64,000 nucleotides of DNA, taken from assembly GCA_043228905.1 (NCBI GenBank), contig JBHGNT010000013.1, positions 4,774,001-4,838,000 of the forward strand. Reading direction: 5' to 3'. The notes beneath the pieces are model-generated. The model worked only from the letters and a program-made list of their open reading frames with translations, did not search any database and was not told the origin of the DNA. The DNA is from Azolla caroliniana (lineage: Eukaryota; Plantae; Polypodiophyta). Within the stretch, counting starts at the first letter, position 1; each line of letters starts with the position of its first letter. Both the position numbers and the translations under genes were made by a program. Shown here one piece after another: positions 595 through 59,228 of the stretch.

Positions 595-2968
595 ACGGCG
601 AAAGACGCAAATTGGCATGTCGCGATGGAGGAAGAGATGTGCGCATTAATAGACAATGAGACTTGGGATCCGGTTGACACACCGAAGGGTGTAAAGCCGA
701 TGGGATGTAGATGGGTGTTTAAGGTGAAATACAACATCGATGGTTCGGTAACTGATATAAGGCCCGTTTGGTTGCGAAAGGCTACGTGCAGAAGCACGAC
801 ATAGATTCTGATGAGACCTTCGCCCCAGTCGCGAAGATGACTACCGTGCGAGTTCTACTATAGCCATAACATCGATGAAAGGATGACATCTACATCAGAT
901 GGTTGTAAACAATGCGTTCCTGCAAGGTATTCTTGAGGAACAAGTGTACATGGTACAACCCCCTAGATTTCTATCCGAACAGAACAATTCAACAGTTTGC
1001 CAATTGAAGAAGGCGTTGTACGGACTTAAGCAAGCCCTGCGAGCTTGGAACGGTTGCGTAAAATGGGGTTTACGACATCAAAGTCGGACTCCTCGTTGTT
1101 CGTTCGACAAGGTCGACATGGACCAATTTGTCTTTTACTTTATGTTGATGATTTAGTCATCGCCGGTGCCGACCTGGAAGAAATCGGCCACGTAAAGTCT
1201 CAACTTGCGGCATCGTTCGAAGTGATCCATTCCCCCGAAGGCATATTGATCAGTCAACGTCATTACGCGCTGAATATGCTCTTCAAGTTCGGGATGGCAG
1301 ATTGTAAGCCCATCTTAACCCCTTTGGATAGCAACGTGAAGCTTCGTCGAGATTCGGGAAAGGCGTGCAACATGACATAGTTTCGATAGATTGTCGGAAG
1401 CCTCATCTACTTGACGATCACTCGGTCGGACCTCAGCTATCCGGTCGGAATGATCAGTCAAGTTATGTCGTAGCCCACGACCGAACACCTTCAATGCGCG
1501 TAAAGGATATTACGATATGTGAGCGGCTTGAAAGACATGGTGCTGTTGTATCGTATAGACGTAGCCGAGCAGTTAGTCGGCTACACGGATGGCGACTAGG
1601 CCGGAAATGCCCATGATCGAAGATCCACATCTGGATACACATTCTCATTGGGAAGAGCGGTGATCACGTGGAGTAGTAAGACGCAACCAATAGTAGCACT
1701 ATCGAGCACTGAGGCTGAATATTGAGGGGCGACTATCGCTACGTGCGAAGTCATTTTGGCTCAAACGGCTATTACGGGATCTGCACGTAGAGGTGTCCGA
1801 TCCAACGACGATCTACTATAACAACCTCAACAACATCCACCTTCTAAAAAACCCTGTATTGCACACTCAGACTAAGCACATTGAGGTGCACTACCATTTT
1901 GTCAACGAGCGTGTCCTTTCTGGTGAAGTCGAACTGCCGTATGTTCGAACGGGTCGGCAGATTGCCGACACCTTCACCAAGCCCCTTAGTCTCGACAAGT
2001 TACGACATTTCTCGATTGAGTTGGGTTTGTGTCACCTCGACACGCCAAACTTGAGGGGGAGACAGGAATAAGAATAGGAGCGTGAAAGGAGCGGTAGTAA
2101 CTGCAATGTCAAATTAGATGAAGAATTCGATTTCGGGCCGGCTGAAGAAGCCGAAGAAAAAAAACGGGGCCGTAATCGGAAGGAAGAGCTGGAGATAGCC
2201 GAATAAAGGGGAAACAAAGCCAAGAAAGGCGTAAAGGCCAAGATTAAGACATGGTCAGACGTAGTTAAGGGCCTAAAGAAAAAAGACGAATTGGAGACAA
2301 CCAATTCGAGTGAAAGCGGGAATGAATTGGAAATGTTCGATTTGGATACGCCAAATCAACTAAGGGCCAAGCGGAGAAAAGAGTAGCGAAATAGGCGCCA
2401 AAACCGTGATAGCAAGGGAGCTGAGAAAGGCCACATGAGTAGACAAGCCAACTGAAAGGGTCGAGGAGCGTGGAATTGGACGGGTCGAGGAGCGCGAGCG
2501 AGGCGTGAAGCCAAGAGAAGTCGGAGCGAAGATCCGGAAAAGCATAGGAACCTCAAGTTGAGCTTGAGGGGGAGTGTTGAGAGACAAGCTCAACATTGGG
2601 TGCGTAACCCAGTGTGTAGATTGGGTGCGTAAAACCGTACGCAAAATATGGCCGTGAAGGTGTCTAAACCGGAAGGCCGTTAGAACGTTATTCCTCGTAA
2701 GGAATAGTTTTGGGAGTTAGTGTAGAAGGCTCATTTATGAGCGGTCAAGTACTGTCAGTACTTGTGTTAGCCCGATAGTCAGGGCTTGTATAAAAGGTGC
2801 TCATTGAGCATGAAATATGTACAAAGAACATATAGAGAATTAGTTTCGAATATAGTTTTGTATTTTCTGCTCACTCTGTCTCTCCCTCTCCTTCTCTATG
2901 ATTTTTGAGTTTTATCGAACTGTCGTACGTCCGAACCGTGTACTCTTCCGCACACGTATTATTTTACA
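595..2968 (+). mobile_element. pol: Ty1/copia 3' half: degenerate RT-RNaseH, PPT and 3' LTR (2575-2968)
   Basis: Motifs WVFKVKYN, NAFLQG, LYGLKQA, LLYVDDL, TKHIEVHYHF and LRG; PPT GAGGGGGAG precedes TGTTGAG; LTR ends TTTTACA; many stops and frameshifts. Confidence 0.9.
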
Positions 2969-3606
2969 GATAGACACTTTAAGACCACGCAGATGGGGAG
3001 GAATAAAAGGGTACTTAAGGGAGAGAAGTGAGGGAAGATCTGAGAGAAAAGCGGTTGCCTTAACAACCTGATGTAACAACTTCTCTCCCTCTTTGAGCTA
3101 TAAAAGGAGGGAGAGAGGATGTAGAGGGGATGCACGATTTGGGAGGTCGAAGTGCTATTAGTTTGAGAGCTGAGCATTTGATTTGCTATGTCCGCATATC
3201 TGTGCGGTGCTGTGGAGTCCTCTGCTCTCGTAGGAAGCCCGAGTGCTCTCGACTAGAGGCCCACCAGTATCAGTGTCTGTGTGAGTGTGGGCATAGAGAG
3301 CTTGAAGCTCTTCTACCGGTCGAGTCCGGTTGTATTTCTTTTTCTATTTCCTCTGATTAATCATTAGTTTATTGCTCCTCCCATGTGTTTGGGTGTCCCT
3401 GTGCTTTATTCTTGCTTTGTTCCATTTGAGAGAGCGTTTCCGGGAGCATGAGCCTATGAGCTCATTGATGCTTTCTAGCATCCATTGTAGAACAACATAC
3501 GTCTCTAATCCCATGCGCTCACCGTTCGGCATCCGGGAATCAATCCGGATAGGATTACACATCCAGACACGTTTTCGATGAAGTTGTGAAGAGGCCGATC
3601 CGGACA
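2969..3606 (+). mobile_element. LTR fragment (probably gypsy) interrupted by the upstream copia
   Basis: TATAAAAGG box near 3099, R/U5-like composition, ends ...GATCCGGACA. Confidence 0.5.
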
Positions 3607-3609
3607 ACT

Positions 3610-4770
3610 TGTTGAGTGTACAATCTCAACATGATCTGGATTGGAGTTCAGAACGAGAACCGGATCTGTGTCAGTATGGTATCTAGAACCAAGGGCCGGA
3701 TTAGATTGTAACTGGTAGGCCGTTAGAGGCCTACAAATTTAGCCTAGTACGTAGACATATTTTTTGGGAGTCAGTGTTAGTCGCTCGTATGAGCATTGAA
3801 GTACTTGTCAATACTTCTGTCAGTTCATGTAAGGACTTGTATAAAAGTGCTCACTGAGCACATTGTATGTACATAGAATTATTGTTTTCAATAGAGTTAT
3901 GTTCTGCTCTCTCTGTCTCTCCCATGTAATGTTTCCATTAAACATGTGTCTATATTCTATTGCTATCCAATTGAGCTGGTTTTGTCTTAGCTTTCGCATA
4001 TCTACTTTTAAATGGTATCAGAGCGTGAGGGTTGAGAACCTTTGTAGCCGACAAGCGTTTTCTGAAGACAAAACCCTAATAGTTGGTAAAGAACAGACAA
4101 AAGAAGAATATGGACCGAGGAATGGCTAGCTCGCTCCCGACGGAAAAGCTCGACAGATCCAACTACACATCTTGGTCGTACAAGATGCACCAGTACCTAC
4201 TCGGGCATGGTTACTGGAGTTATGTCGACAGAGTTAACGATACGGCGCTTGACGCAATAGAAGGACTTCCCGACTTGGGAACAAACATGAAGCAAAGTTA
4301 TGTACTGCTTCGCGTCCAGTGTAGGCGCTCAATTACTGAGCCATATCTGGGACGGCAAGCTGCCAAAGGAAGATTGCGGAAACCTAAAGAGGGTCTTTGC
4401 TACAAGCACCATGACCCGGAAGCTGCAACTCCGGCAGGAGTTGAGCAATGTTTGATAGAAGGACATGTCGATGGCCGACTATGCGGCCCGGATCAAAGAA
4501 ATCTACGACTAACTTGCCTCTATCAACATGACCGTCGAGGAAGATGAGATGGTGCAGGTCTGTCTCGGGGGCCTAACGTCAAAGTTTGGAGCATTCCGGA
4601 TTGCGGTCTGTACAAGGGAGAATACGCCCTCGTTTTTCGATTTACAGTCGATGCTCCTAGTAGAGGAGAACCATGTGGGTGCATCAACGAGCACACACAC
4701 CAATAGCAGGATGATATAGATGGAGGCGGATTGGCCCTGTGATTGTGGCGAAGGAGGCGGATCAGCACGT
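3610..4770 (+). mobile_element. gag: Ty1/copia 5' part: LTR 3610-4012, Met-i PBS and degenerate gag, interrupted by a gypsy insertion
   Basis: TGTTGAG start; TGGTATCAGAGC at 4013-4024; gag peptide LPTEKLDRSNYTSWSYKMHQYL homologous to the gag near 12350. Confidence 0.88.
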
Positions 4771-4879
4771 TGTTGTGAAAATCTGTCACTATGTGCAGAT
4801 CAAGAGGCAAAACCGCCAAGGTTATGGACGGGAAGGAAATAGGGCTCACACACACAACACAAGGAAGTCTTACACAAAC

Positions 4880-5580
4880 AAGGCATGAGTATTTGAACGT
4901 GTTTGTGCAAAGGAGAGGTGCATGAGCAAGCCCGAATCAACCCCTAGTCATAAGGCGAATGAATGCACGTGAGGAAGGCTTACACACGGACACACAAGGA
5001 AAAGGCTTACTTACACACACGAGAGACAAAGTTTCAAATGCCTTTGTGAAAAGTAAGGTGCATGGGCAAGCCCAAACGTTCCCTTGTTACAAGACACACG
5101 AACACACAAGCAAGGTTTACACACGGGAGACACAATTTCAAACGCCTTTGTGAAAGGAGAGGTGCATGGGCAAGCCTGAACGCTCCCTTGCCACAAGTCG
5201 CACGATCACACAAGCAAGATTTACACTAACAGGCAAGACACAAAATTTTGAATGCCTTTGTGAATGGAGAGGCGCATGGGCAAGCCCGAAACGCTCCCTT
5301 GTCACAAGACACACAAACAAATAAGCACAAATGACAATAACATATAAGACACGTAAGTTTGAATGCCTTTGGGAAAGGAGAGGTGCATGGGCAAGCCCGA
5401 AGCGCTCCCTTGTCACAAGACACACAAACAAATAAGCACAAATGATGATAACATATAAGATACGTAAGTTTGAATGCCTTTGTGAAAGGAGAGGTGCAGG
5501 GGCAAGCCCGAAACGGCCCCTTGTCACAAGGCACACAAACAAATAAGCACAAATGACAATAACATATAAGACACGTAGGT
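4880..5580. repeat. ~111-bp tandem repeat (about 6 copies) inside the LTR of element C
   Basis: GAATGCCTTTG...AGAGGYGCATGGGCAAGCCCG recurs at about 5250, 5361 and 5472, with diverged copies near 4900, 5037 and 5140. Confidence 0.85.
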
Positions 5581-6429
5581 GAAACCAAACATTAGTTTAT
5601 TACAATATAATAGATTCTTTTATAAAATAAGAATCAATTTTACAACAGGTTTGATATGAATATGAGAGATAATTTATAAAGGAAGGGGGAAGAGAGGTGG
5701 AGGAAAGATGAGAGTGGAATATAGAAGAAGGTGATTCTTTGTTGATGATGCCTCTCGATGTTGTTGATCTTTCTTCTTTTGCCTTCCAATTGAGTAGACC
5801 TTCCGCATTCCTTCTCCCTCCCCCCCTTCTTCACTACAATAGGCTCTTATTTATAGGTTTAGGATTGCTTGCCTTTTCCCCCTAAAAAAAAGCTTGTGTA
5901 TATGAGTCGACTTTTCTTTTCCTCACTATTTCGGTTTCTAGCCCCAAATTTCACATGCAAGATATTCTTGGAAATCTCTTTGGGTTAGCTTTCTTATGGA
6001 TCTTTTCTTTTCTAATTTGGACATTTGATGAGGCAATTATGAGCTTTTTTCTCTATTGTGTTCCTCATATCCACGCGTGCTTTTGTCTTTTTTTCTCTCC
6101 ATCTTTTTCTCTACTTTTTTCTACTTTTGAAAACCGCCTCTAACTTAATATTCATCATTATTTATAGTAAGGTTCAATCCTTTGACCTTTTATTTATAAG
6201 GAATTATCTTTGGCAAATGAAAAAGTATTTTTGCTACCAATAAAGTTGACTTCACAATACTAGTTTATTTGAACTACTATTTTACTTCTTTTCGAGGGTG
6301 GTTTTACACTATGTGTTAGAAACATCACGACTTCCAGTCCCACCAAACCTACACATCCTCCGGTATGTGCCAATGATTGTTAGCTGCTATTGCTTATTCT
6401 TTTTAAACCTCGAAGTCTAGAGGTTCGAT

Positions 6430-9400
6430 TTAAGGATTTGTGGTCTCTCTTCTCTTAAAGATCTTGATTCTCTTCCCTGCAATCGGCAAAGCAAGTCGAG
6501 TTCCATCTAACTCCGCTAGAAAATAGGTTGCATTGTTTTCAGTTTCCTTAACCACATATGGGCCAAACCATCGTTTCACGAACTTTCGAGGAGTGCTATG
6601 CTGGTTATGAAGGCTTCTATCATAGACAAGTACCCAATCTCCTTCTTCAATTTTTCTTAGACGAAGACGATGTTTTTTATCAAAATTCTCCTGGTTCCTC
6701 AATTGAGCCTCACGTAACCGCTCTATTGCTAACTCGACATCTTTGGGTCTCCGTTCTAATTGTTGGATCCTTGTAGCTAGCAAGTCTTCTCGACTCATCT
6801 TCTCTTGCCATGGCAAAGCCGTCCATGAAGTAACACTTTTCTCGATAGGCATTATTGGTTTTTGCCCTAATATGAGGTCGCTCGACATATATCCTGTAGT
6901 CGTGCTATGTGTAGTTCTATCGGCCCACAATGCATATGGTAATAATCGTGGTCAGTCCCCCATCTTCCCTTCGCAAGAATTTGCTAGAGCTTTTACAATC
7001 GGGCTATGTCTCCGCTCCACCTTTCCATTTGCCTCCGGGTTGTATGCCATGGTAAGTGATAATTTGACACCTATCCTTGAGAAAAACTCTTTAGCTTCAT
7101 TTGCATCTAATTCTCCTCTATCGGCTACTATTTTGCCGACACATCCATATCGACAAATAACATCTTCCAAGAGAAACTTGCAAACCGCCAAAGTTGTTTT
7201 ATTCCTTAGTGCCCGACCTTCTACTTGGTTGGTGAGATCCTCTCTTGCTAGCACGAGGTATCTCATTTGCCACAATCCCATTGGCATAGCCACTATGTCT
7301 ACCAACCACTTATAGTGCATTGATAATGGATATGTCGGATGAAGTTCATCCCTAAGTTGAACATTCGAGTATAATTGGCATTGCGCACATGTTTCAACAT
7401 AGCTTGTTACATCATTGTAAACACCTGGACAACAATACTTCTCGTTGAGCTTTGCAAAAGTTGCCCATATACCTCGATGACCTGCCCACAAACTATCATG
7501 AAATTCAACAATTAGTGTTTGTTGATCTTGTTTCTTGCACACCACTCGAAGTGGAGTTCCATTCTTCCTCTTTGGAAACTTCCATAGATATCCTTCTTTG
7601 AGGAAGAACTTGTAGGACTTCTTCCTAATTCGGTAGAAGTCTTCCTTTGACCATGATTCATCCTTTGTAAGAGAGCTTAAGTACTTGCCAATTTTGATGA
7701 ATTCACCCTCATAATCTTCTACTTTAATCACCGCTAGCACCCGAGCACAAGAAATTGTAAAGAAGTTTAGGCCAACATCCTCTTTATCAGAGCATAGATC
7801 TTCTTCACCCTCGTACCTTGCCCTTGACAACATATTGGCCACCACATTATGCTTCCCAGTTTTATGTTGAATCTCGGGGTTGAACGACTTGATATAGGAA
7901 ATCCATCGTAGTATAGCAATATGTGGTGTAGCACAACCAAATATCATCCCGAGAATAGGTAGGCATTCGGTTTCGATTATGACTTCCATTCCGATAAGGT
8001 AGTCGCGATCGGTTTTAACCGCGGATACTATCCCCCATAGCTCTTTCTTTACTTGGATGTACTTTCTTTGTCTTTCGGTCAACACCTTTGCACCGAATCG
8101 GATTGCATACCGATTTTTGACTTTTTCTTCTTGGTTAATCAGCCATCCAATTCCGATTGGGCTCATATCCACTGTCACATATATCAGGGTACCTTCGGTG
8201 TAGTTGGATTTGCGCAATGCTGGAGCTTCCAATAATAGTTTCTTCAACTTTTGAACCGCGTAGGTATGCTCGTCTTCCCATCAAACTTCTTCCTTTTCTT
8301 TAGTAGTCCATGCAATGGTTCAACAACATGGGCATAGTGTGGAATCCATATGTGGTAGAACGCACATGCTCCCAAGAATCTTCTCACCTTTGTTTGGGAC
8401 TCACACTCCTATTTCATCTCTTGGATAACATTCACCTTGGATGGAGATGGCTTCCGGCCATAAGATCCACAGAAGTGTCCTACTACCAATATTTCTGGTT
8501 GACCGAATGCGAACTTCTCTCCCGAAAACGTGAGATTTGCATCCTCAAACTTTTGCAACACCTTCTTGTTATCCTTTATATGATCGATGACAAATCTTCG
8601 GCAACCATCTTCATCTTTTGATTCATCTTTTTCTTCCATCGAGCATCCTTTGATCGGAATTTCATCTAAGAAAGGCATTGTCATATTAGGAATACAATCC
8701 TTTAACACTTTTTTCATGCCATTCATCATATGGGCTATGGAGTTTGTCGCACCTTGGGGTAAGGTCCACATCCTTACCAACCCAATCGGTGTCCTCATTG
8801 TTGTAATGTCTCTACTATTGACTAGCAATTGAAATTGATCATAGCTCGAGTAGAGATCACCAATGGAATAGATCGATCTTCCCGCGAAGGCTTTGGCAAA
8901 TTCATCCACGCTTGGACCAATTCTGGCATTTCTGATCGTCATCTTGTTGACGGGTTGGAGATCTTGAATAAAGCGTAAGGACCCCTTCTTCTTCGGCACT
9001 GTAAACCATTTATTGGAGTAGGGAGCATTGGATGGCTCAAGAATTCCTATCCTAACCTTTTCCTTTAGAAGCTCAATCCACTTCGGAATGTGAGCTCTTG
9101 GAACTGGTATCAGCTTGAGGTTCCAAGGTACATGCGGCACCGTAAATATCACCATCGGCTCTATCATCTTCGGGTCGGCACATCCGATTTCTTGTCTCTC
9201 AAGCATCATCCGAAACCTTTCTTCTTCTTCGGGGAGAAGGAAGTCATCCTTCCTGACTTGGAGTTTCCCTCTTGATTCATTGGTGAAGGTATGACCTATC
9301 CCTTTTGGGTCTCTGAGACTTGGATCCTTGGTAACTTCCTTCATTCTTTGCCAACTATCCTCCGGTAAAGGAATAGCTACCGGCTTGACCTTCTTATCTA

Positions 9401-9797
9401 CTGTTTTATATTTTGTATTTACTTTGACCAACTCCTCCATAACCCCTCGTTGACATTTGTCAATGGCGGTATACATGTTGATGGAGTTGATATGAATAGT
9501 ATGTTGCTCATGAGGGCTGAAGTCCACGATACTCGTTATTTCTCCAATTGTATTGTTAAATGAGGCTTCCTCCATGACCCATGATATGTTGTCTTCTTCT
9601 TCTAATATTCCTTGTTCTTTTAACTAATGTTCAAAGCTTTGAACTTGGCTCTTCTCTCTCTCATTGAGTGTAGTCATCCCACACACGCCATTAGGTGCTA
9701 AATATAGGTTTCCTTCTTTCTTTCTTCTTCTTTTCAGGGACTTACTTTCTCTCAGACTATCTTTGCCCCATTCTTCAATAGTCCATGCTAAAAATCC
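6430..9797 (-). pseudogene. pol: Gypsy pol (RT-RNaseH-integrase), disrupted
   Basis: ORFs 8409-9575 (LPQGATNS, PFLDEIPIKG), 6952-8247 (RNase H; GHRG..C..C; ADRGE; YNPEANGKVER) and 6430-6930 (WFGPY). Confidence 0.92.
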
Positions 9798-11794
9798 GAG
9801 GCCTCATCTCCTAGGCTATCTTAGTTCCTCCCATGATTAGCTCACATGGTCAAGAATTGAACCAACTTTCGACCATCAAGACTCTTCACCTGAGCGAATG
9901 CCGCTCCATTGCCGAACACCTTAGCCTCCATCCTTGATGATGTTATGTAGGGTTGCCCAAGAATCACCGAATGGGAGGCTGAATCTTGCACAAAACAGTG
10001 TTGGTCGATCTCTACATCCCCGATTGTGACTTGAATATTGGGACATGCTCCATAAAGTTCTTCCGTTACCTTTGTCGCCGCATGAATCCTCCATCCATGG
10101 TTCGTGTTGATAGGCCATCTTCCCTTCTTATAGAAATCCATCGACATGAGGTTAATCTCTGATTCGTGGTCTATAAGAGCCACAACCGTCTCTTTTTTCT
10201 CTCCAATCTTCATTCGAGTTTCCGTTGTCGCTCTCGCCCAATGGGGTTGTGTATAATGACTGTCCACTAGATCTTCTTCTTTTTCTTCTGTCCTTGCCAT
10301 ATTTATGGCATTGGTTGTCACCTTTGTCGAAATTCCCTCTTCCTCATCCACTTGTTGTCTTTTTCATTTGATAAGATCGACGATGGTCTCATGGAACTCC
10401 TTCTTTGCAATTCCAAGTAGTTCTCTCAATGTAAGGTCAATACGGCTATCAAGCACTCTTTCTTCAAGAACCTTTCTTAAGTTAGTTGTTTGTTCAATAT
10501 CCGACCTTAATTTTTATGTTGGCGTCGATCTATCCTTCCCCTTCTTGGAAATCTCTTCAATGGGCTGAGTTGGTTCCTCGGCTCTCTTGTTTGAGCTTCT
10601 ATCTTCTTGACCTGTGGTCTTGATCATCTCTTCCTTCTTCTTAGTGCTTCTTGTGTCATGTTTCTTGGAAGGTCCTTCATCTAGATCTGTCCTCTTCCGC
10701 TTCTCATCCACAAACACTTTGTGGGTTTCGCATATGACCTTTGCAGAGATCGTGTTGTTATCAACTGGATCCGCCCACTCGATAAGGTCTCGTACATGAA
10801 AGTTGGCTAGCTTTGCATCATCCGAATTAATCTTCTCTTTTTTTCATATTCGAGGACGGTTGGCCAAAACCCTATTACTGGTTTAATCATTCCAAGGTTC
10901 TCCTTCCCGATTCTTATACCGGTGGATGCGGCATAGTTTATAGCTTCGACGTGGCTCACATCGGCCTCATCCATTATTTTCTTTAGAACCTGCCTACCGA
11001 AATTCACTTGCAAGAGCTTCCGAGTCTCACTTGAGTGTATAATGTTTTGTCGAATTGCCTCTTGAAGGCTAGCACAATCTTTCCTTGCATGATCAACACT
11101 ATCACACCATACACATCTATATGGGTCTTTCCCCTTTGGCCCTCTACGACTCATATTAGCTAATGAAACCGCTTCAAATTTTCATGCCAACTCTTCAATG
11201 ACAGAGTTATCCATCGCTCTTTCGGTCAGCTTGCTTTTCTTTGTCATCTCAGTTGCTATTGGAGCCTTCCTTCTTTGGACTACTGGGCCCTCTATGTAGG
11301 AATCATCTAGCCATTGGAGACGTTTGTCAAATCGATCACATGCCCTTCTTACCGCAATACAATCTGTTATGAGACCATTGGGTTGTGCTTCGTCTTCTAA
11401 TAGACTACCTCGTTCTCGTCTATTTTTTGCATCCACCGCCTTTAAGAAGTACAAAACTTTATGTCCTTCGAGAAGTGTTTGGTCGGTTCTCGGGAGACGG
11501 TTGTACATTTGGTCAAATTCAGTGTACACTCCCGATGTGTTCATGTTCTTCCCCTTCTTCTTGATCCACTTCATCAATGTATGACGAGTCATCCTCGACG
11601 CATCTTCAAGCATATATTCAGCCAAAAGCACCCTTTCAAATCCCACCCATGTTGTTTGGGCGGCTTGAATCTCCCTTATACGGACTTGTAACCCAATTGC
11701 TACGACACGCTTGAAGCTTGATATTTGCTTCTCTTTGAGGACATCACATTGTTGCATCTCCGTCTTGTATGTAGCGAGAAAATCCGTAATGTTT
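9788..11794 (-). pseudogene. gag: Gypsy gag-protease, disrupted
   Basis: Zinc knuckle CVWCDSVDHARKDC; protease ALIDHESEINL...ILGQPY. Confidence 0.88.
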
Positions 11795-12339
11795 TGTTGA
11801 GAATCAAGCTCAACTTGGTCTAGTGTGTGAACTCACCTTGAGAGTGAATAGACACTCCAACAATCAAGAGTCACCATTATGTCACCACTTTGTATTCTAG
11901 CATTTAGTATGAGTCATAGAATCATATTCTATGACACATAACTTATGAGCTTTCACATTACCCATGCTCCATGAGTCTTGTAGTTAATGTAGAGAGAGGG
12001 TGACTATATAAAGCACCCTCCTCCCACTTTGTAAAATGTTGAGTCTTTCTCCTTTGTTAATACAATCTACCTTGCGTATACTCTATGTCTTACTTCTCAC
12101 TCACTCACTCTCTCTCTCTCTCATACACACACAGTTCACACCTATTCTGCTACACAAGAATCATACCGGATTCTTTACATGGTATCAGAGCGATTTGGTA
12201 GCTCGATCTAGCCCATTCGCCTCATCGTGATTGTGTGTTGTGCTCCACGCTGACGACCAAGAACCGGCTCATCGTTATCGTAGCTTCGCTACATAGTTCG
12301 CATTCGAAGAGAGAAGAAGAAGAAGAAGAATCGACATAA

Positions 12340-15300
12340 TGAATACTCAAATGAGGAGCGCTCTCCCTACCGAGAAGTTGGATCGAAATAACTTCGCATC
12401 TTGGGAGTACAAGATGCACCAATAGCTTGTCGGACAAGGCTATTGGAGCTACATCAAAGGATCACATGAAGACCGACCCGCCGAAGCGGCTCCCGAATAC
12501 GCGACATGGGAGCAAGCCGCAAGTGGTGTGATGTATTGCTTGGCGACATGTGTTCATGATCACATGCTCGGCTACATTCACGAAGCCAAGACGCCGAAGG
12601 AGGCATGGGAAAATCTACGAAAGATTTTCGCGGCGAACACAATCGCAAGAAGGCTTCAACTTTGTAAGAGTTGAACAACATTCAACAAAGGGACATGTCC
12701 ATCACGACATACACCTCGAAGATCAAGGAGCTTTGCGATTCGCTCGGCTCAATAAGTGTAAATATCGATGATGATGAGATGGTTCAAATATGCCTCGGCG
12801 GCCTCGCACCATGGTTCGGCGTGATGCGAACCACCGTTCTAGCACAGGAGAAATCTCCCTCCTTCTTTGAGCTCCAATCAATGCTATTGGTCGAAGAAAA
12901 CCACGTGCATACAAGGAGCAATGAGTCGGAAGGCCACATGCTCTACACGCACTCGAACGGAGGAAGAGGATGCGGACGGTCGAGAGGCCGATTCGGCCAA
13001 GGACAAGGTGGACGAGGTCCGACCTATGATAACAACTCCCAATTTCGGCCGCAAAACGGAAGCCAACGAGGAACCTTCACAGGAAGGGGGAGCTTCCATT
13101 CCGGTGTAATGTGAATCTTCACACACTATGTAAAAAAAAAAATGAAATAATTATTATAGATTAGATTAGTAGAGTATTATAGAAAAATGGATATACTCAA
13201 GAGCTTCAAAACGTTTTTTACTATATACAAAATGGAGAAATACATATCAAGTTATGAGAAAATAAAGTTTGAGAAGATAGGGAAATTAGAACTATCCCAC
13301 ATAGATAGGAAAGTTAAGGCCCTGGCTATATAAACACCTTGAGCTCCCTCATTTTTCATTTGTGCTAAGAGCACTTTGGCCACTTTGTCTTAATGGATGA
13401 TGGTGGCCAAATTCCCTAAAACCGGAAACCGGTCGGTAAGCAAATCCGGAAATTGGCCGGTATGCAATCCGGAAACTGGCCGATATGCAAAACTGGAACC
13501 GGCCGGCAAGCAAAATCGGAACTGGAATCGACCGGCAAGCAAAATGGAACCGGCTACGGGACGAGGTTGGACGCGGACGAACGAAAGATTGGATCATGCA
13601 ACAAACTAAAGTAAAGGTCAAGTGGACGGTCGCATGTAACTAAAGAAAAAGCCATGCAACTAAAAATAGATTCAACGAAAAGAAAAGCTATGCAACTAAA
13701 AGTGGAGGCATATGATCAACGAGGAACTCCATATATAATTCCATTTTTTTTTTTTCCTAGACTGGGATACTCTCCATATTATCTTAATTTTCTTCTCAAC
13801 TCCCTTATCTTAGGGAAGCCATAACTCCCATAAACCCTAAAATTCCTTTCGGAAGCCATAACACTCAAAAACCCTAATCTTCCCTACGGAAGCCATAATA
13901 CTCATATAACCTAATCCTAATCTTCCCTACGGAAGCCATATCTACCAAAACCCCTAATTTTTCTTTTCTATTAATCTTAGTAAACCTAAAACTTCTAAAT
14001 TCCAATCTTGGGACATATTGTAATTTCTTTTTCCTTTGTTAATGAAAATTATTAAATTTCTTCTTTCTGTTATTTGTTAAAAAATATAAACGCACGAATG
14101 TGATTATCCTCTGGTCGGAGGCCCCGGGGTCTTGCCTCAACGTTCACGTATCCTCGTCGTATTTTCGCGACACCGGCCTGCGCCGTCAGAACGCAACCAA
14201 ATGCGGATATTGCGGAAAGCTCGGCCACCATGACGAAGAGTGCCGAAAGAAGATGCGTGAATCGGCTTCCACAACCGAGAACTCACGAATTACGCACACA
14301 ATTCCGACTACGAAGAGTATAGCAGAATGTATGGGCACAACTCCGACTACAAAGATCGTGGCGGAATGTACGCACACAACTCCGACCGTGGCGGAATGTT
14401 CATGATGAAACATAGAGCAAACTCTATGTCGGCCTCTACCTCAACTAATGCCCTCAATTCGGAGGACGTATGGTTTGTTGACTCCAGAGCCTCATACCAT
14501 ATGACATCTCATAAAGAATGGTTTCTCAAACTTCGAGAGCCGGAGCGACCCGATTATGTAGAAACCGGAGATGACACTACGCACCCGATTCGGCACATCG
14601 GCAATGTTCCGTTCGGTGAAAGAGGTAAGCAAACATACATTAAAAATGTCTTGCATGTTCCCACCATCATGAAGAATTTGGTCTCGGTTGGAAAAATGGT
14701 TGAGCAAGGGATGCAAGTACGATTTGACCAAGAAGGGTGCTTCATCGAAAAAGAGGGCCGAATCATCGCGCGTGGAAGAAGAGAGGGCTGGATGTTCATT
14801 CTTGATTCACGCGAGATGAAATCCGCCATTTTCGCGAAAAGCATAAAAGCCGACCCCGACATAGAGCTAAGGCACAAGCGAATCGGCCACATCAATCTCA
14901 ACAAACTCAAATCAATGAAATCGAAAGGAGTCGTCATCAGACTCCCGACATTCAAAGAGAAGGAGATTGAATGTGTATGCGAAGCATGCCAATTCGGCAA
15001 GCAACACCGACACCCATTCCCGAAAGAGCGGAACGTGAGCAAAGGTCTACTTGACGTAGTCCATTCCGACGTATGGGGACCGGCACAGATGGCTACATTC
15101 GGTGGATGCCGATATTACGTGCTCTTCATCGACGACTTCTCCAGGCACACTTGGATTTACCCGATGCGGCAAAAGAGCGAAGTGTTCGGACACTTACAAA
15201 TATTCAAGAATGAAGTCGAGAAAGCCACGGGTCGACATGTACGTTGTCTTCGATCGGATGGCGACAAGGAGTACTTCTTGGACGATTTCATGACGTATCT

Positions 15301-17712
15301 CTGAAAGGAAGGAATTCAGCGAGAATTCACTTGCCGACACACTCCGAAACAAAATGGAGTAGCCAAGCGCAAAAATCAGCACATGCTCGAAGTAGCGCGG
15401 CCCATGATGAACGAGAAGCATATGCCCAAGTCATATTGGGCCGAAGCTGCAAATACGGCCGTCTACCTAATGAACCGATGCACAACATCCGGCGTGCACG
15501 AGGTCACTCTGCACGAAAAATACTTTGGAAAGAATCCGGAGTTATCCCACACCCGGATATTCGGCGTGATAGCATACATGCACATCCCCGACGAGAAGCG
15601 TCAAAAGCTTGACCCAAAGTCGGAGAAATGTATCCTTGTAGGATACTCACTGGAGCAAAAGGGGTACAAGTGCTACAACCCCTCAACTCGAAAATCTCGA
15701 GTAAGTCGAGACGTCGTTTTTGACGAGTCCGCATCCTGGTACGCACCAGAGACAACTCTGACTCCGACTCCGCTGGACCGGGAATCCGCCGAACAAGAGA
15801 TACAGGATGAAGATCACCTTACGCGCATGTTCGAAGAAAGTCCGATCACGACCCAACTGAGTGGACCACAAGAGCCTTTGAGCGATCAAAGCACATCACA
15901 GCCTAGCCCGAAGATGGACAAAGGCAAGTCGAAAATGGCGGAATACGCAGATGATCACTTCGACGACGATGAGTCGACTCACTCACTCGACAGTGAGTTC
16001 GGTGGTTTCGAGGTACCAATCGGAGCTAAGAAAGCCCTCATCTTTGCAAATGAAAAGCTCCGTCGCTCCACCCGTGAAAAGAACCCCGTAAGCCGATTCG
16101 GCTACAACGATTATATGGTGTACCATTACGCCTTTATGATGAAGGTGGTGACAGTACGCAAGCCGGAAACTTTTTCCGATGCAGCCAAGGATCCGCGATG
16201 GATCGAAGCCATAGACGAGGAGATGCAGGCACTACGCAAGAATGAGACATGGGATCTCATTCCCACCTCACCACACAAAAAGGCGATCAGATGCAAATGG
16301 ATTTACAAAGTGAAGTACAATGCCGACGGTTCTGTCAACCGCTACAAAGCGCGACTTGTAGCGAAAGGCTATAACCAAACGCACGACGTTGACTACGAAG
16401 AGACCTTTGCCCCGGTGGCAAAGATGACGATGGTACGGACCGTAATTGCGCTTGCCGCGGCGAAAGGGTGGCACCTCCATCAAATGGACGTCAAGAACGC
16501 CTTTCTACAAGGCGAATTAGAAGAGGAGGTGTACATGATCCAACCACCCGGCTTCAAATCGAGCATCCATCCGAAAATTGTATGTCGACTCAAGAAGCTA
16601 CTCTATGGCCTCAAGCAAGCACCATGTGCTTGGCATTCGAAGATAATGCAATATCTTCATCAAATCGGCTTCCGTATGTCAAAATCGAACAACTCCCTCT
16701 ACATACGAAGCGATTCCGCAAGTCCGATCGTCATCATCTTATATGTGGATGACCTAGTCATTGGAGGTGAGCATCTTGTCAAAATCAATAAGGTCAAATC
16801 CCTCCTTTCTGACAAGTTCGAGATGACGGACATGAAGGAGCTCCACTACTTGGCATCGAGGTAATTCGGACTCCGGCCGGAATCATGATCTCTCAACGGC
16901 ACTACATCCTCAACTTGTTATACAAGTTCGGGATGGCTGAGTGCAAATCCGCGGCAACCCCGCTCGATCGCAATCTCAAACTAGATGCGAACTCCGGCAC
17001 CAAAGCGTGTGAGCCGACTCAATATTGGCAACTCATCGGGAGTCTCATCTACCTCACGATCACACGACCCGATCTCAGTTATCTAGTCGGTTTCCTTAGC
17101 CAATTCATGCAAACACCGCGTGATACTCACTTGGATTGCGCTAAGAGAGTTCTACGCTACGTGAGCGGCACAATGGATTGAGGCATCCTCTACAAGACCG
17201 TGATGCCAATACGATTCGAGGGGTACACAGACGCCGATTGGGCCGGCTACCGTCGCTCTTTCGGATTTGTTTTCTCCCTCGGCAGCGGAGCAATATCCTG
17301 GAGTAGCAAGAAGCAGCCTAGCATCGCTCTTTCGAGTACGGAGGCGGAATACAGGGGCGCAACCGTAGCTGCGTGTGAAGCCGTATGGCTCAAGAGGATT
17401 TTGAAGGACGTGGGAGTACCCATCAAGGATCCGACTTCCCTTTACTGCGACAACATGAGCAGTATCTATCTGGCTCGGAATCCAGTGTTCCATGCGTGGA
17501 CAAAGCACATCGAAGTGCACTATCACTTCATCCGAGAGCGCGTTCTAGCTAGCGATGTCGACCTACAACACATTAGCACCAATCTTCAAATGGCCGACAT
17601 CTTCACTAAAGCCTTAGGAGCCGACAAGCTATGGCAATTCATGACCGATCTCGGATTGACAATTCTTGACCTGCCAAGCTTGAGGGGGAGTACTGAAGAC
17701 ATTATGCAATAA
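12340..17712 (+). pseudogene. pol: Copia gag-pol (gag, PR, IN, RT, RNaseH) with stops and frameshifts, split by a solo LTR
   Basis: CGYCGKLGHHDEEC; WFVDSRASYHM; HSDVWGP; MDVKNAFL; LYVDDL; HIEVHYHFIRE. Confidence 0.93.
13105..14172 (+). mobile_element. Solo LTR (gypsy, probably Trp lineage) with 4-bp TSD CCGG
   Basis: TGTAATGTGA...TTCGCGACA; CCGG at 13101-13104 and 14173-14176; copia gag continues across it. Confidence 0.92.
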
Positions 17713-19494
17713 CACATGGATTCCGCAAACCGCGCACACTACGCAATAACGCGTGGATTACGGAATCCATGCAACGAAGCCGTGAAGAGCCGATCTACCA
17801 TGCAAAGCCGCGAAGAAAAACGCAAGCCGAAGCACAGACTTCGCAACTACACACAACGCAAGCTGGAGCACGTATTCTGCAACTCTGTATAAATGCGAGT
17901 CGATGCGGACTCCAGAACGCGAGTCGAAGCGGATTTCGGATACCGTATGAAACCGACCTGACTAGAGCTTGAGGGGGCATGTTGAGAATCAAGCTCAACT
18001 TGGTCTAGTGTGTGAACTCACCTTGAGAGTGAATAGACACTCCAACAGTCAAGAGTCACCATTATGTCACCACTTTGTATTCTAGCATTTAGTATGAGTC
18101 ATAGAATCATATTCTATGACACATAACTTATGAGCTTTCACATTCCCCATGCTCCATGAGTCTTGTAGTTAATGTAGAGAGAGGGTGACTATATAAAGCA
18201 CCCTCCTCCCACCTTGTAAAATGTTGAGTCTTTCTCCTTTGTTAATACAATCTACCTTGCGTATACTCTGTGTCTTACTTCTCACTTACTCACTCTCTCT
18301 CTCTCATACACACACAGTTCACACCTATTCTGCTACACAAGAATCATACCTGATTCTTTACATGTTTCTTCCACCAAATTGGCCTGTTATCTCAACGGTT
18401 CGGTCGATGGCCTTTTCTAAGGTTGCATCATTATTTCGAGCTCTCATCATATGCTCGACAATAGCCACCAACATTTCCACTTCGTCAGGTTGGGTGTGTT
18501 AAGCATTTGGATTGCAACAGAACCAATCATGAATAAGAGCGCATCAACAAGGATGTAGTATGTGTTGAAGGGCCTACGAAGAGGAAACGGGAAGAGGAAA
18601 AGAGGCAAAGGGACGTCCAAATGTGGAAGGCCCATACCCTAAACGTGAATGCTATATAAACCACATAATAGTGGCTTTGTAAGGATTCTTCCATTTGTAA
18701 AGATCTTCCTATTGATTAAGAGCTAGAGCTCCCTCTCCTCCTTCTTGTAAGCTTTAAGCTTAAGAGAGATTAGTGAAGTGTTTAGTTAGAGAACACTAAT
18801 CTCTCTTCCTTGTTGGTGCTAGAACTCTTAGCAAAGAGGGTTAATAAACATATTCATTACTCTTATTGTCTACATTCATTACCCTATTGTTTATGAGAGC
18901 GAGCTTGAGAGAGTGAGAGAGATATCGTGCTTAATCATCTATTAATCGTTAAGTGAGTGTGAGGCTCGGAGGTGTCTGACAACCATCTCCACCTGATTCG
19001 CCATCAAAAGGGTATACGCAGGTTTGAACTCTGCAAACGACATCGGGGAGTTAACTCCGTCGATACATAGATCGTACACATCTATTTGGTGTCGCTGCCG
19101 GGGATACGACCAACGCTTGAAGCCGATTTCGAGTAGTCAAAAATTCGTAGGAAACCCACTTAACTACTATTTCGTAGGAAGAAATCGAAAGGAAACCACT
19201 ATTTTCTGTTTTTTGCTCACTCTTTCATAGTTTAATTAAGTTAACTTTTGGTTTTTTAAAACACTTACTATTTCACATTTTCATTAAGTTAATTTTTTGT
19301 TTTTAAAGAAGTTTTAAATTACCCTTCCTTAATCGCCCAGACATTAGCAAGCTATTCGTTCGGTTAACACTAAGCATTGTTGAGATTTAGCCGTTGCAGG
19401 GCAAACATAACCACCGCGATTCTCGCGGATTACAATCATCCTATGGGACACGAAACAACTGTTGGCGCCAAAAAATTCAAATTCCCCCCGCAAA

Positions 19495-19775: not shown

Positions 19776-21334
19776 TCGCAAAAGCTTGACAAGAAAACAT
19801 GGCCGGATCCTCATGGACAGAGATGTTCAAAACCCGACCCACACACCAGGAGGAGTCCACCCAAACCAACCAAATACACAATGCTGACCCACCTAACCCG
19901 ACTCGGTACCACGGAGGGTGGCTAACTCTGGGGACACTACCAAACATGAACCTCCCATCGAGCCCAGGAACTGAAGCACCTCTCAACACGCCCCCACTAC
20001 AGGAGAGCCCAATGATAGACCCACTTAGCGTAGAGAGACACATACGAGACACCGCACAGGAGTTACGAGTGATAGAACAAGAAATCAATCTATGGATGGT
20101 ACAACTCACGAAAGGAGGACAACTGGAAAGCATCACTTGAGATATCGAAGCCGCTTTGGCGGAAAGGAAAGACAGATTCACGAGTGCAACAAAAACTTCA
20201 CCTCCTAGAAACATCGTTGCACATGCACTGTCGAGGCCGTGAGCGCAGCCCCCTACCGCATTCGAGCACAACAGGCGACAGTCCAAATGAAACCCACACG
20301 CAACGACACTCGACACCACCACGTATGGACATGACCCCTACACCCGACCAAACTGCCCTGACACCCCCAAACGCCAAACACACAGTAGCGTTATAATCCA
20401 TCCAAACCCTCGTAGCATTGATGGAAAAAGAGCGAGCACCAACGGACCATCCGAGAAACACTACGAATGACAACGGGAAGAGTGCTTCCATTTCTAAACT
20501 AGTACCCCGTTTTCTCGGTTTTGGTGATGCCTATGATCATGTTGAGAGGTTCAAACAAATTTGTCGCGCTTATGAACCCCTCATAAAGACCACCAAGGTA
20601 GCCGAATTTGGGCTTACACTCGATGACCAAGCTGGAATTTGGTTTCGAACCTTGAATGAAGACATCGTGGAGGATTTCGAGTACGTTTTCATGACGATTT
20701 TCGGCTACGGTGTGAAACCGAGTGAGACGAATAAACCAAGGATGTGCAACATTGCACATGCACTTAGCAAATAAACCTAAGGCCTAGTGGCACTTGAGTT
20801 CATACAGAGGGGTGCAAGCAAGGTTTGAACCTTTCACCTCTAAGATACAAGATGATTGCCTTACCATTAGGACAACTATCATATAAGTAGATTCTATGTA
20901 TTTCCTTTTTATATACGAATTATAGATGAAACAACCATAGAAAACCATGTGCACAAAACCATGGTTCTAAACCCATGGTTTGTGCATGACATAAGCAAAA
21001 CCGTGTGCACAAAACCATGGTTTTAGCCCATGGTTTTGTGCATGTCACAAGCATGGAAAGACCTATAAAAGCCTCTAGTTGGGCTTGTGTAAGGGGGGCT
21101 CAATATGTGATATCACCAACTCCATTATCATCAATATAATTATATTTGTCTTCATCTTCTTCATATTTTTCTACTTCTCAAGAGTACAATTTTTCTTCTT
21201 CTCAAGTAAACCAATTTCATCTAATCTTACATTGATCATCATCTCTTCGATAATTCTGCAAACATCCTCCCCAGTCCAAGACCCCGGTGGTCGCTCAAGT
21301 AGCGCACGCGCACGCGAATCTTCGCGACATCATT

Positions 21335-21351
21335 TGGTGAACCCGACGTGA
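21335..21351 (+). promoter_or_regulatory. PBS complementary to the 3' end of plant tRNA-Trp
   Basis: Reverse complement TCACGTCGGGTTCACCA; identical PBS at 26344-26360. Confidence 0.85.
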
Positions 21352-21373
21352 AGAGCAGTAGGGGAGGACGAAG

Positions 21374-21634
21374 ATGGATGGAGAATATCTCATGGAGGCA
21401 ATGTCAAAAAGGATGATGGAGTTTCTGAGAGAAGAGAAAAGACGAAATGAAGCCCAACAAGCCGTCGATAGGGTAGTCGAGCGAGTGAGCTATCTCAACG
21501 GCGCTGAAGTCCAAAGTTTTCTAAAAGTCTACAATGCGGAGATGGATTCAAGAGGTGTGGACGAAGTGTAAAAGATTGCTTGTGGAAGCGTTAGAAAGAA
21601 CAATACACAAAGAGAGAGAGCGAGTACGCGGGAG

Positions 21635-21687
<53 letters not shown>

Positions 21688-38243: not shown

Positions 38244-40205
38244 TCACCGTTACCAAAGATCTCACCTCTTCACCTTTCTCGGCACATACCGGAGGATGTC
38301 GCGACGATTTTCGGCTACGGTGTGAAACCGAGTGAGACGAATAAACCAAGGATGTGCAACATTGCACATGCACTTAGCAAATAAACCTAAGGCCTAGTGG
38401 CACTTGAGTTCATATAGAGGGGTGCAAGCAAGGTTTGAACCTTGCACCTCTAAGATACAAAATGATTGCCTTACCATTAGGACAACTATCATATAGTGTA
38501 GATTCTATGTATTTCCTTTTTATATACGAATTATAGATGAAACAACCATAGAAAACCATGTGCACAAAACCATGGTTCTAAACCCATGGTTTGTGCATGA
38601 CATAAGCAAAACCGTGTGCACAAAACCATGGTTTTAGCCCATGGTTTTGTGCATGTCACAAGCATGGAAAGACCTATAAAAGCCCCTAGTTGGGCTTGTG
38701 TAAGGGGGGCTCAATATGTGATATCACCAACTCCATTATCATCAATATAATTATATTTGTCTTCATCTTCTTCATATTTTTCTACTTCTCAAGAGTACAA
38801 TTTTTCTTCTTCTCAAGCAAACCAATTTCATCTAATCTTACATTGATCGTCATCTCTTCGATAATTCTGCAAACATCCTCCCCAGTCCAAGACCCTGGTG
38901 GTCGCTCGAGTAGCACACGCACGCGCGAATCTTCGCGACAACGTCATCGAAGATTTCTTGATAAACTTCGCTCGTCGAGGGAATAAATGGAACCCCATTG
39001 ACCAACTTCTCGCCCTCAAGCAAGAAGCGAACGAGATGGTCAGGGACTACATACGTCGCATGAAAAGCTTGCACCATCGTTGTGGCCCGAGCGACAAGAT
39101 GTCAGATGACAAATTGATGAGTCGTTTCATCAATGGGTTGTTCAATCCGACACTCCAAAATTTCCTGATTGCCAAGATGTGTCGGTCGTTCACTAAAGCT
39201 TGCATAGTAGTGATGACCTTGGAAGATTCAATGAGCGGGTTATGGATACCCACTCAAGCACCCAGGAACAACCACGAGAAACCCTTGGACCTCACCCCCA
39301 CTCTACCCACACCACCGAGACCACCCTGTATAGAAAAACCCCAAGCATATGCCCAAAGAGAAAATGTAAGGTGTACGGTATGCCATGGACACAACACAGG
39401 GCATGAGTGTCCCCTCCTCCACCAACGATGGCTGCAATACTGTAAGTGGTGCAAAGCTTTCGTGATGCATCCGCAAGAGAACTGTTGGCAAGCCCCGACC
39501 GGAAGGTACAACCAAACACCAATGGTGGAGCACTCACGCTCACCTCCATCGCTTAGTCGCCCAGAACTACCAACGATACTTCCCCAACAACCTCCACTAC
39601 CATGCATTGGCGCTCACCTCGCCGAACTAGAATATACCACTGATAGCCAAACCCAGGTCAGGGTGAGTGCTCCCAAATACGAAGACTCGTACTGAGAGTA
39701 TGGTGTTGAAGAAGAGGTGTTGTCCCACTTTGTGGACTTCGAAGGAGACCAAATACCAATGTACATCCTGAGAGGGGAACAACGGGGGCCGTCGATGGGA
39801 TATCGCAACAATAATGGTCTAAGGAGGTCAGAATTGAAATGTTTAAACTACCAAGGCCCACATATGGTTAGCGAGTGCCCAACCAAACATGAATACTACA
39901 ACAAAATGGCACAACGACCACACCACCCCCCACTCGAAACACCCCCACAACCACCGGCGCAAAGTCTCACCCAATTGTCACAGGACCTTATCGAGTGGTT
40001 CCAAAGAGAAGCATCATGCCCATCGTGTGGTAAGGAGCACTTAGTACTTGATTGCCCAGAAAAGAAGAAAAGGGTTGGCACAAATCTGTTGTCTATCGTA
40101 CCATCCATGATTGGCGCCAACATCATCACATGAGCTCAACGAGTAGCTCATAATTTAAGTGCATGTCACATGAGCTCAACGAGTACCATCCACGATTGGC
40201 GCCAA

Positions 40206-57383: not shown

Positions 57384-59228
57384 TGACAGGAACTACATGC
57401 TCCTTATGCGCAACGCTCGGCCACAACCAAGCTTAGAATCAAACTCAGAAAACGGGTAATGAATGCACGACATAGTGAAGAGAAGAGAACACAAGATGTT
57501 ATTGTGGAAAACCCAAACTGGGGAAAAAACCATGGCAGCCCACAGACTGCAAACTATCACTATATCAGAATGTACAATAGTAAAGCACCGAGGCAACGAC
57601 CTCGAGCTTGCTATCTTCGCCACAGGCAGCAGTTACAACAGAGGCAACGACCTCTTCCTCTCTCTCACACTCTCTGTACACTATTGCGCTCTTATCTTGC
57701 GCCAACAAGAATGAAAACAACATTACACTAAGTTTGCCCTAAGTCATATTTATACTAATATGACTTTTCGGCTATCTACAAATATAGCCCCGATGGACTC
57801 TCAGAAACATATTTACGAATATGTCCCTTCATCCGGTGAGCTCTCCTCACCGGGCCTGCATCATCCGGCGCTTGCCGGGTACTCCTCATCCGGTTTAGGG
57901 TTTAGGGTCTTTCGTTTTCGGGTACTCCTCTTCCGGTTCTCACCGGGTCTTCCGTTTCCAGGTACTCCTCATCCGGTTCTCACCGGGTCTTGCGTTTCCG
58001 GGTACTCCTCATACGGTTATCAACAGGTCTTCTGTTGTCAGGTACTCCTTATCCGGTTCTCACCGGGTCATCCCATCCGGAGGGACCTGTTTCCTAACAA
58101 ACTCCCCCTTCACTCCGGCATGGGATGTCTTACTAGTCTAATCCGCTTCCGGCATGCTTCCAGCTTGTCGGGTATCATTACTTTGGTCAGCATATCTGAC
58201 CTGTTCTCGGCCATGTGGATCTTCGTCAGCGCGAACTCCTGGTCATCTACTCTTTCCCAGATCTAGTGATACCTTCGCTGGATATGCTTCGTCCAGGAAT
58301 GGTAGGCCACATTCTTAGCAAGGTGGATGGCACTTTGACTATCGCAATAGAGCCGGTATTCATCTTACCGGATATCGAGCTCTCCGATGAAGTCCTTCAT
58401 CCATAATATTTCCTTGCCGGCTTCCACAGCCGCCATATACTCTGCCTCCGTGGTTGACAACGCAACCGTCTTCTGCAGCCTCGACTGCCACGAAACATGT
58501 CCCCATGCATATGTCATTACATACTCGGATGTAGACTGATTGGTATCCACATCGGCCGACATGTCCGAATCAGTAAAACCGTCAAGTTGAGGTTTTTCCG
58601 GAGCCGAATCGGAGACACATATTCGAAGTGCCCTTCAAGTACCAGAGTATCCATTTGACCGCGTTCTAGTGCTCCTTGCCGGGATTGCTCATAAACCGGC
58701 TCACCACTCTGACTGCGTATCCTATATCCGGTCGGGTACACACCATTGTGTACATTAAGCTCTCGACGGCAGAGGCATATGGAACCTTCATCATATCAGC
58801 CTTCTCTGCTTTCGTCTTTTGGCTTTGCTTACCGGATAATCTACAGTTTGCCGGGAGTGTCGATCCGACCGGTTTCGCTTCCAACATGTTGAACCACTGA
58901 AGCACCTTTGTCACGTACTTCTCCTGTGACAGCCACAATTGCTTCATTGACCGGTTCCAGATGATATGCATCCCCAGCATCTGTCTTGCCGAACCCAAGA
59001 CTTTTATTGAGAAGGTCTCGTTGAGGGCCTTCTTCAGCATCTGTATTTTGGCTTGGTCTCATTCGACGATCAACATGTCGTCCATGTACAGAAGGAGTAT
59101 CAGGAAGTCGCCTCCTTCGAACTTCTTCGCAAACACGCAGTGATCGGCCTGCGTTTTGTGGTAACCTTGATCAGTCATGAAGGAGTCGAACTTCCGGTAC
59201 CATTGCCGGGGGGCCTGCTTCAACCCGT
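57384..59228 (-). mobile_element. pol: Ty1/copia K (same family as I): 3' LTR 57384-58099, RNaseH and part of RT, interrupted by gypsy L
   Basis: Highly similar to 24550-25719 and 32695-33320. Confidence 0.92.

What the first reader, a model, noticed from the sequence alone, without database searches (positions are those of the whole stretch)
595..59228. Trp-lineage gypsy elements integrate at a CpG-centred palindromic target, (A/C)CG(G/T), with 4-bp TSDs
Seen: all six readable junctions fit MCGK. Both sides are visible for CCGG (13101/14173), ACGT (20683/38941) and CCGG (25716/32695). One side is visible for ACGG (595), ACGT (4767) and CCGT (59225). Only 4 of 256 tetramers fit this pattern. 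The copia elements in the same DNA make 5-bp TSDs with no shared motif (TGTTT, CGAAG, GGCCA). The L integrase has no chromodomain. The two isolated LTRs are assigned to this lineage only from their terminal sequence. Inference: the integrase has a sequence- or possibly mCpG-dependent target preference that could steer insertions into CpG-rich, methylated TE islands and help explain the nesting.
Basis: partly seen in the sequence, partly recalled or inferred. Interest (0 to 1): 0.85.

Follow-up and report, generated by a model that had tools for sequence, protein, structure and literature searches.

The report
Phygy-type retrotransposons insert at CG
Six related jumping genes in this stretch of plant DNA, likely from a fern, each sit next to a four-base target with CG at its centre; this is real, but it is the published signature of the Phygy group of plant retrotransposons, to which these elements likely belong.

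Summary
All 6 junction tetramers are as described, and the 3 two-sided ones are exact 4-bp duplications, not 5-bp. Reads from other copies agree: empty sites carry one CCGG, and the flank consensus before the LTR ends in ACGT in 3 of 4 runs. It is not new. Neumann et al. 2019 list Phygy as 4-bp TSD (100%, NCGN), tRNA-Trp PBS (81%), no extra domain, and Phygy has been reported from ferns and a liverwort. The window's elements meet these features; I could not place them in a tree with a reference Phygy sequence. The strict (A/C)CG(G/T) rule is too narrow: 9 of 10 single read junctions were NCGN but only 4 were MCGK. The likely mechanism is intrinsic integrase preference for a central CG step, as for ZAM and Ginger1. 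Methyl-CpG sensing is untested, and copia elements without a motif nest here too. The scan noted an NCGN preference before, in fungal retrotransposons (e1-10582392).

The parts
1..594 (+). Partial LTR of the Trp-PBS lineage, running off the window start; ends TTCGCGACA
   Evidence: Same terminus as the solo LTR; 80-94% to LTRs in L002, L007, L009
595..598 (.). One-sided target tetramer ACGG, followed by copia RT
4767..4770 (.). One-sided target tetramer ACGT in a copia gag
4771..18471 (-). Element A: 3' LTR 4771-6332, broken pol 6430-10363, gag interrupted by a copia at 11795-18362 and resuming to about 18471; 5' LTR and PBS not found in the window
13101..14176 (+). Solo LTR 13105-14172 with exact TSD CCGG (13101-13104, 14173-14176) in a copia gag
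20683..38944 (+). Element J 20687-38940, non-autonomous (gag-like only); LTRs 20687-21329 and 38297-38940, 2.3% divergent; TSD ACGT; holds two nested copia elements
21335..21350 (+). PBS of J, identical to the PBS of L; tRNA-Trp assignment is from recall of the plant tRNA-Trp 3' end
25716..32698 (+). Element L 25720-32694 (6975 bp); LTRs 25720-26340 and 32073-32694, 2.1% divergent; TSD CCGG; gag, protease, RT, RH, INT with stops and a frameshift; no chromodomain or second RNase H hit
26344..26359 (+). PBS of L (tRNA-Trp type)
32060..32072 (+). Polypurine tract of L, conserved in M, A and five loci
59225..59228 (.). One-sided target tetramer CCGT in a copia RT
59229..64000 (-). Element M: 3' LTR 59229-60248 and an open 1170-aa pol frame 60321-63833; runs off the window end
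11790..18367 (+). Control: copia 11795-18362 with 5-bp TSD TGTTT
21562..23862 (-). Control: truncated copia 21567-23857 with 5-bp TSD CGAAG
24545..37011 (-). Control: copia K 24550-37006 with 5-bp TSD GGCCA/GGCCG; host of L

Best explanation
These are chromodomain-less Ty3/gypsy retrotransposons with 4-bp, CG-centred target duplications, likely fern members of the Phygy clade, and their integrase likely selects the CG step by itself. Shown: 4-bp duplications, a central CG, a shared PBS, no chromodomain or extra RNase H hit. Inferred: a two-fold symmetric intasome cuts with a 4-base stagger, must bend the target at the central step, and combines a need for a flexible pyrimidine-purine step with base contacts that favour CG over TA or CA. 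The outer positions are loose; in the junctions seen, T at the first and A at the last position were avoided. Because young elements are CpG-rich, this would tilt insertions a few-fold towards them without any reading of methylation.
For: 6 of 6 window junctions NCGN, 3 of 3 two-sided TSDs exactly 4 bp. Flank consensus ends in ACGT for 1491 reads (X21), 18 contigs (X1) and 26 contigs (X5), at overall agreement 0.36-0.43, i.e. many different flanks. 9 of 10 single junction tetramers NCGN, 1 ambiguous. Phygy row of Neumann 2019, supplement 5: 186 elements, 4 bp (100%) (NCGN), tRNA-Trp 81%, no extra domain. Ferns are said to contain Phygy (PMC13477047, passage), and so is a liverwort (PMC12885004, passages). 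Named relatives of L and M are from Riccia, Adiantum and Ceratopteris and form one clade with them, support 100, apart from the chromovirus-like rows (quick tree). Precedent for intrinsic choice: purified ZAM integrase binds CGCGCg directly (PMC2527525, abstract); retroviral sites are enriched for central YR steps, more so for short TSDs, largely independent of chromatin (PMC4422553, abstract); Ginger1 TSDs are CCGG 75% and CCGT/ACGG 24% (PMC2836005, passages).
Against: No reference Phygy sequence could be obtained: the REXdb FASTA and the element table were too large to read and no Physcomitrium protein was named among the listed hits, so membership rests on features, not on a tree. L is 6975 bp, below the published range of 7656-9968. 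Of 4 outer flanks in 16 metagenome loci, 2 were exact (ACGT, ACGG) and 2 were not NCGN (CCAG, ATGT); homologues did not support a decayed CpG for ATGT. Three opposite-strand joints at the LTR start in the Hi-C run were not counted; read literally they would not be NCGN. The read consensus is a plurality only, X4 showed no such row, and flanks ending in A are under-counted because the reference has A there. No biochemistry exists for this integrase.
Confidence: 0.8

Rival explanations
1. The integrase prefers methylated CpG (directly or through the changed DNA flexibility), which would steer a chromodomain-less element into silenced transposon islands.
For: All six insertions lie in other retroelements. 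LTR pairs show many CpG-type changes (5 of 13 mismatches in L, 8 of 15 in J, 13 of 24 in K), which suggests that this DNA is methylated. No chromodomain hit.
Against: No methylation data were available. The window is almost all transposon, so nesting is expected of any element, and three copia elements without a motif nest here too. ZAM targets CGCGCg with purified integrase, in a fly that lacks CpG methylation (recalled). One literature search found no paper on this.
Confidence: 0.12
2. The elements are not Phygy but a separate non-chromovirus clade, allied to fungal elements, that has the same PBS, TSD length and target motif.
For: The plant clade nests with support 100 among rows that include Acaulospora and Tilletia proteins. 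Pol identity to the chromovirus-like rows is only 25-28% in RT-RH. L is shorter than the Phygy range.
Against: Four features match the Phygy row at once, and Phygy is reported from the same plant groups as the named relatives. Fungal kinship does not exclude Phygy. TatI also has 4-bp TSDs and a Trp PBS but carries an extra RNase H between protease and RT, for which there was no hit.
Confidence: 0.12
3. The pattern is chance plus a motif chosen after the fact in CpG-rich DNA.
For: Six sites only; host elements have CpG o/e near 1.
Against: p about 5e-8 for NCGN with local backgrounds; the same centre appears in reads from three runs and in print.
Confidence: 0.01

Closest known systems
Phygy clade, non-chromovirus Ty3/gypsy (Neumann et al. 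2019, PMC6317226; passages, sections 8 and 13, supplements 5 and 6 read; Jedlicka et al. 2019, PMC6911290, passages)
   Same: 4-bp TSD, NCGN target, tRNA-Trp PBS, no chromodomain, no extra RNase H, coding region fills the internal part, non-seed plant host
   Different: Defined from Physcomitrium patens; here likely a fern. L is 7.0 kb against 7.7-10.0 kb. A lean towards MCGK, and a non-autonomous partner (J), were not described in the parts I read.
TatI clade (Neumann et al. 2019, supplement 5)
   Same: 4-bp TSD, tRNA-Trp PBS (75% of 4 elements), non-seed plant
   Different: TatI has an additional RNase H between protease and RT and no stated TSD motif; no such domain hit here.
Ginger1 DNA transposons (Bao et al. 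2010, PMC2836005, passages)
   Same: Gypsy-like integrase with GPY/F motif, TGT termini, 4-bp TSD CCGG (75%) or CCGT/ACGG (24%)
   Different: DNA transposons with TIRs in animals, no RT. No relationship to these integrases was tested.
ZAM errantivirus of Drosophila (Faye et al. 2008, PMC2527525, abstract) and other Drosophila gypsy families (Linheiro and Bergman 2012, PMC3276498, passages)
   Same: 4-bp TSD, palindromic clade-specific target; ZAM targets CGCGCg and its integrase binds it directly
   Different: Different lineage and host; most Drosophila families have TATA or ATAT cores.

Membership tests
Phygy (REXdb) | Clusters with P. patens Phygy elements in RT-RH-INT trees (primary criterion) | not testable with these tools
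   REXdb FASTA too large to read; no Physcomitrium protein named in the listed hits. The quick tree shows only a liverwort-fern-window clade.
Phygy (REXdb) | 4-bp TSD | tested here: met
   3 of 3 two-sided insertions; empty-site contigs
Phygy (REXdb) | NCGN target motif | tested here: met
   6 of 6 in the window; ACGT consensus in 3 of 4 runs; 9 of 10 single junctions; 2 of 4 metagenome flanks
Phygy (REXdb) | tRNA-Trp PBS | tested here: inconclusive
   The same 16-nt PBS follows the 5' LTR in L, J and 4 loci. Its identity as tRNA-Trp is recalled; no tRNA gene lies in the window to compare.
Phygy (REXdb) | No chromodomain after INT | tested here: met
   Only weak SH3_Tf2-1 hits in L, M, A C-termini at E up to 1; pol ends about 50 aa after the GPY motif
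Phygy (REXdb) | No additional RNase H or extra ORF; gag-PR-RT-RH-INT order | tested here: met
Phygy (REXdb) | Length 7656-9968 bp (descriptive; the authors call size relatively insignificant for classification) | tested here: not met
   L is 6975 bp (paper)
TatI | Additional RNase H between protease and RT | tested here: not met
   No Pfam hit in window 28561-29300 or before RT in M
Chromoviruses (Tcn1, Tekay, Reina, Galadriel, CRM) | Chromodomain; Met PBS or self-priming; mostly 5-bp TSD | tested here: not met

The most novel reading that the evidence does not exclude
The integrase of this chromodomain-less lineage reads methylated CpG at the centre of its 4-bp target. That would be a DNA-methylation-guided route into silenced transposon islands, shared from fungal relatives to liverworts, mosses and ferns, and an alternative to chromodomain tethering.
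Probability: 0.1. Interest if true: 0.7.

Novelty: new member of a known kind. Interest (0 to 1): 0.2.

Why it matters
As it stands it matters little: it repeats in a likely fern genome the one plant LTR target motif that Neumann et al. 2019 singled out. It adds that the motif holds in a high-copy family in three labelled organisms, leans towards ACGT/CCGG, and resembles the Ginger1 target. In my searches NCGN with retrotransposon returned only that paper and one unrelated paper, so the mechanism looks unstudied. The open 1170-aa pol frame of element M gives a candidate integrase for testing whether methylation matters.

Tried and rejected
No whole genome is held, so no genome-wide TSD logo. 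A 5-bp TSD reading (for L, ACCGG with an LTR ending in GAC) was rejected because the 5' LTR also ends GACA before the PBS. Scans for relatives found nothing in GTDB genomes (18 stretches, none confirmed) or IMG/VR. The PBS pattern hit 2 prokaryote contigs that hold no retrotransposon. Cluster look-ups of 10 hits gave no plant names. The ESM Atlas gave generic RT-RNase H clusters only. DUF4100 has no paper in the library; its link to Physcomitrella is recalled only and was not used. PMC7466625, PMC2864245, PMC5014426, PMC13469084 and PMC8282616 (passages) gave nothing on Phygy target sites. The careful tree did not finish; the quick tree of 47 rows was used. An extended palindrome (C at -5 in all three read consensuses) is not backed by the window, where 2 of 9 flanks fit; left open. 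PDB sequence search gives PFV and Ty3 integrases as nearest solved structures; no structure was predicted, since it could not decide the question.

Full report
Setting. The window is a stack of nested LTR retrotransposons. No whole genome is held. The named relatives of the gypsy pol proteins come from the liverworts Riccia sorocarpa and R. fluitans and the ferns Adiantum nelumboides and Ceratopteris richardii, at about 52-68% identity, then fungi at 33-38%. The host is therefore likely a non-seed plant; earlier notes of this scan on the same genome say likely a fern, which fits these hits but was not tested further.

Observation. The nine coordinates carry the stated tetramers. L (25720-32694) has 621/622-bp LTRs 2.1% apart and a CCGG duplication. 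J (20687-38940) has LTRs 2.3% apart and an ACGT duplication. The solo LTR (13105-14172) has CCGG on both sides. Of flank lengths 2 to 8, only 4 matches in each case. Contigs from three runs cross the empty L site with a single CCGG (15, 38 and 14 contigs); the fourth run carries a variant at that site. The host frames around the solo LTR are in phase for a 4-base duplication, and the host gag around J reads as gag-like on both sides. The one-sided sites are ACGG, ACGT and CCGT. NCGN makes up 5.0% and MCGK 1.22% of window tetramers, so 6 of 6 is far beyond chance (p 1.6e-8 for NCGN; 5.4e-8 with local backgrounds). The copia controls have 5-bp TSDs TGTTT, CGAAG and GGCCA/GGCCG.

One lineage. L, M and A share pol (L and M 68% identical over 852 aa; A and M 70% at DNA level) and a conserved PPT. 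J's gag-like region matches the gag of L and of five loci, and J has the same PBS as L. The two isolated LTRs match LTRs in metagenome loci, in three of which the same end is followed by this PBS.

Beyond the window. I laid four runs on the start of L's 3' LTR with its PPT, so that reads from 5' and solo LTRs are clipped at 32073 and show host flank. The flank consensus ends in ACGT in X21 (1491 reads, agreement 0.36), X1 (18 contigs, 0.43) and X5 (26 contigs, 0.43). These runs carry three different organism labels. X4 showed no row at that place; 204 rows were hidden. The low agreement shows many different flanks, but the tool gives no per-position counts, and flanks ending in A are under-counted. 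Single junctions from the tables of letters between joints (8 rows that touch an LTR end, 1 further distinct row, read) give 10 tetramers: ACGT twice, CCGG twice, GCGT twice, ACGC, CCGC, GCGG and one ambiguous. So 9 of 10 are NCGN and 4 of 10 MCGK. These are insertions into the CpG-rich element itself. Three opposite-strand joints in the Hi-C run were left out because their orientation is unclear; read literally they are not NCGN. Of 16 metagenome loci, 4 gave an outer flank: ACGT, ACGG, CCAG and ATGT. The last two are one transition from MCGK, but homologues did not support this for ATGT. The rule is a central CG with loose outer bases, not strict MCGK.

What is known. Neumann et al. 2019 (PMC6317226) write that, except for Phygy elements, which prefer NCGN, plant TSD sequences are highly variable. 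Their supplement 5 gives Phygy as 186 elements, 4 bp (100%) (NCGN), 7656-9968 bp, tRNA-Trp 81%, no extra domain. Jedlicka et al. 2019 found 4-bp TSDs commonest in Phygy (passages). Phygy is reported in ferns (PMC13477047, one passage) and in a liverwort (PMC12885004, two passages). The window's elements meet the TSD length, motif and domain features, and the PBS by my recall of tRNA-Trp. L is 0.7 kb shorter than the range. TatI shares the TSD length and primer but has an extra RNase H, for which I found no hit. The primary criterion, tree position beside reference Phygy sequences, could not be tested: the two REXdb files that would allow it were too large to read. My quick tree puts L and M in one clade with fern and liverwort proteins (support 100), nested among rows that include fungal proteins.

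Mechanism. Shown: 4-base stagger and central CG. Inferred: retroviral integrases select flexible YR steps at the centre of the site, more strongly for short TSDs and largely independent of chromatin (PMC4422553, abstract). CG is such a step, but so are TA and CA, so base-specific contacts are needed as well. Purified ZAM integrase binds its CGCGCg target directly (PMC2527525, abstract), and Ginger1 transposases give CCGG, CCGT and ACGG duplications (PMC2836005, passages; lead from note e1-10582392). Intrinsic preference is the simplest reading (0.8 together with Phygy membership). Methyl-CpG sensing stays possible (about 0.1): CpG-type changes between LTR pairs suggest methylated DNA, but nothing here separates CpG from methyl-CpG, and one search found no paper on it.

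Nesting. MCGK sites are 3 to 9 times denser in five young element stretches than in the low-GC 40.1-47.0 kb stretch, though not in element A or J's host. A CG-requiring integrase would drift towards young elements by target density alone. Three motif-free copia elements nest in the same stack, so the preference is not needed to explain the nesting.

Verdict. A real and well-read observation of a published clade trait, seen in new families. New member of a known kind; interest 0.2.

Noticed in passing
window 38275-38297: J lacks the PPT: a 22-nt block that holds the PPT in L, M, A and five loci is missing between two GGATGT-like repeats just before the 3' LTR. L002 shares J's internal sequence and has a normal PPT, so this may be a single-copy deletion.
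   Followed up: partly
window 20687-20694, 13105-13112, 6325-6332: Three LTR 5' ends depart from TGTCG (TTTCATGA, TGTAATGT, AGTCGTGA) while the 3' ends are intact; J has 3 changes in its first 6 bases against 2.3% LTR divergence overall.
   Followed up: partly
window 25720-26450 (reads): Several read junctions show this lineage inserted into its own LTR or gag, and one contig has two LTRs 8 bases apart.
   Followed up: partly
window 18560-40130: Another LTR element, with a different PBS near 19090, a gag and a 36-bp tandem array at 19492-19779, interrupts element A and hosts J.
   Followed up: no
window 24961-25218, 36695-37006, 57870-58100: The LTRs of copia K and its paralogue carry tandem arrays of 54 bp and 40 bp units.
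   Followed up: no
window 40100-47000: Low-GC, CpG-poor stretch (o/e 0.48) with spliced-looking minus-strand ORFs and no Pfam family above cut-off; possibly a decayed DNA transposon.
   Followed up: no
window 51320-51480: A short stretch inside an old gypsy element looks like a malate dehydrogenase gene fragment (recalled motif, not searched).
   Followed up: no
window 28561-31125, 60321-63833: The RT catalytic motif reads FLDD, not YxDD, in L and M and in Riccia relatives.
   Followed up: no
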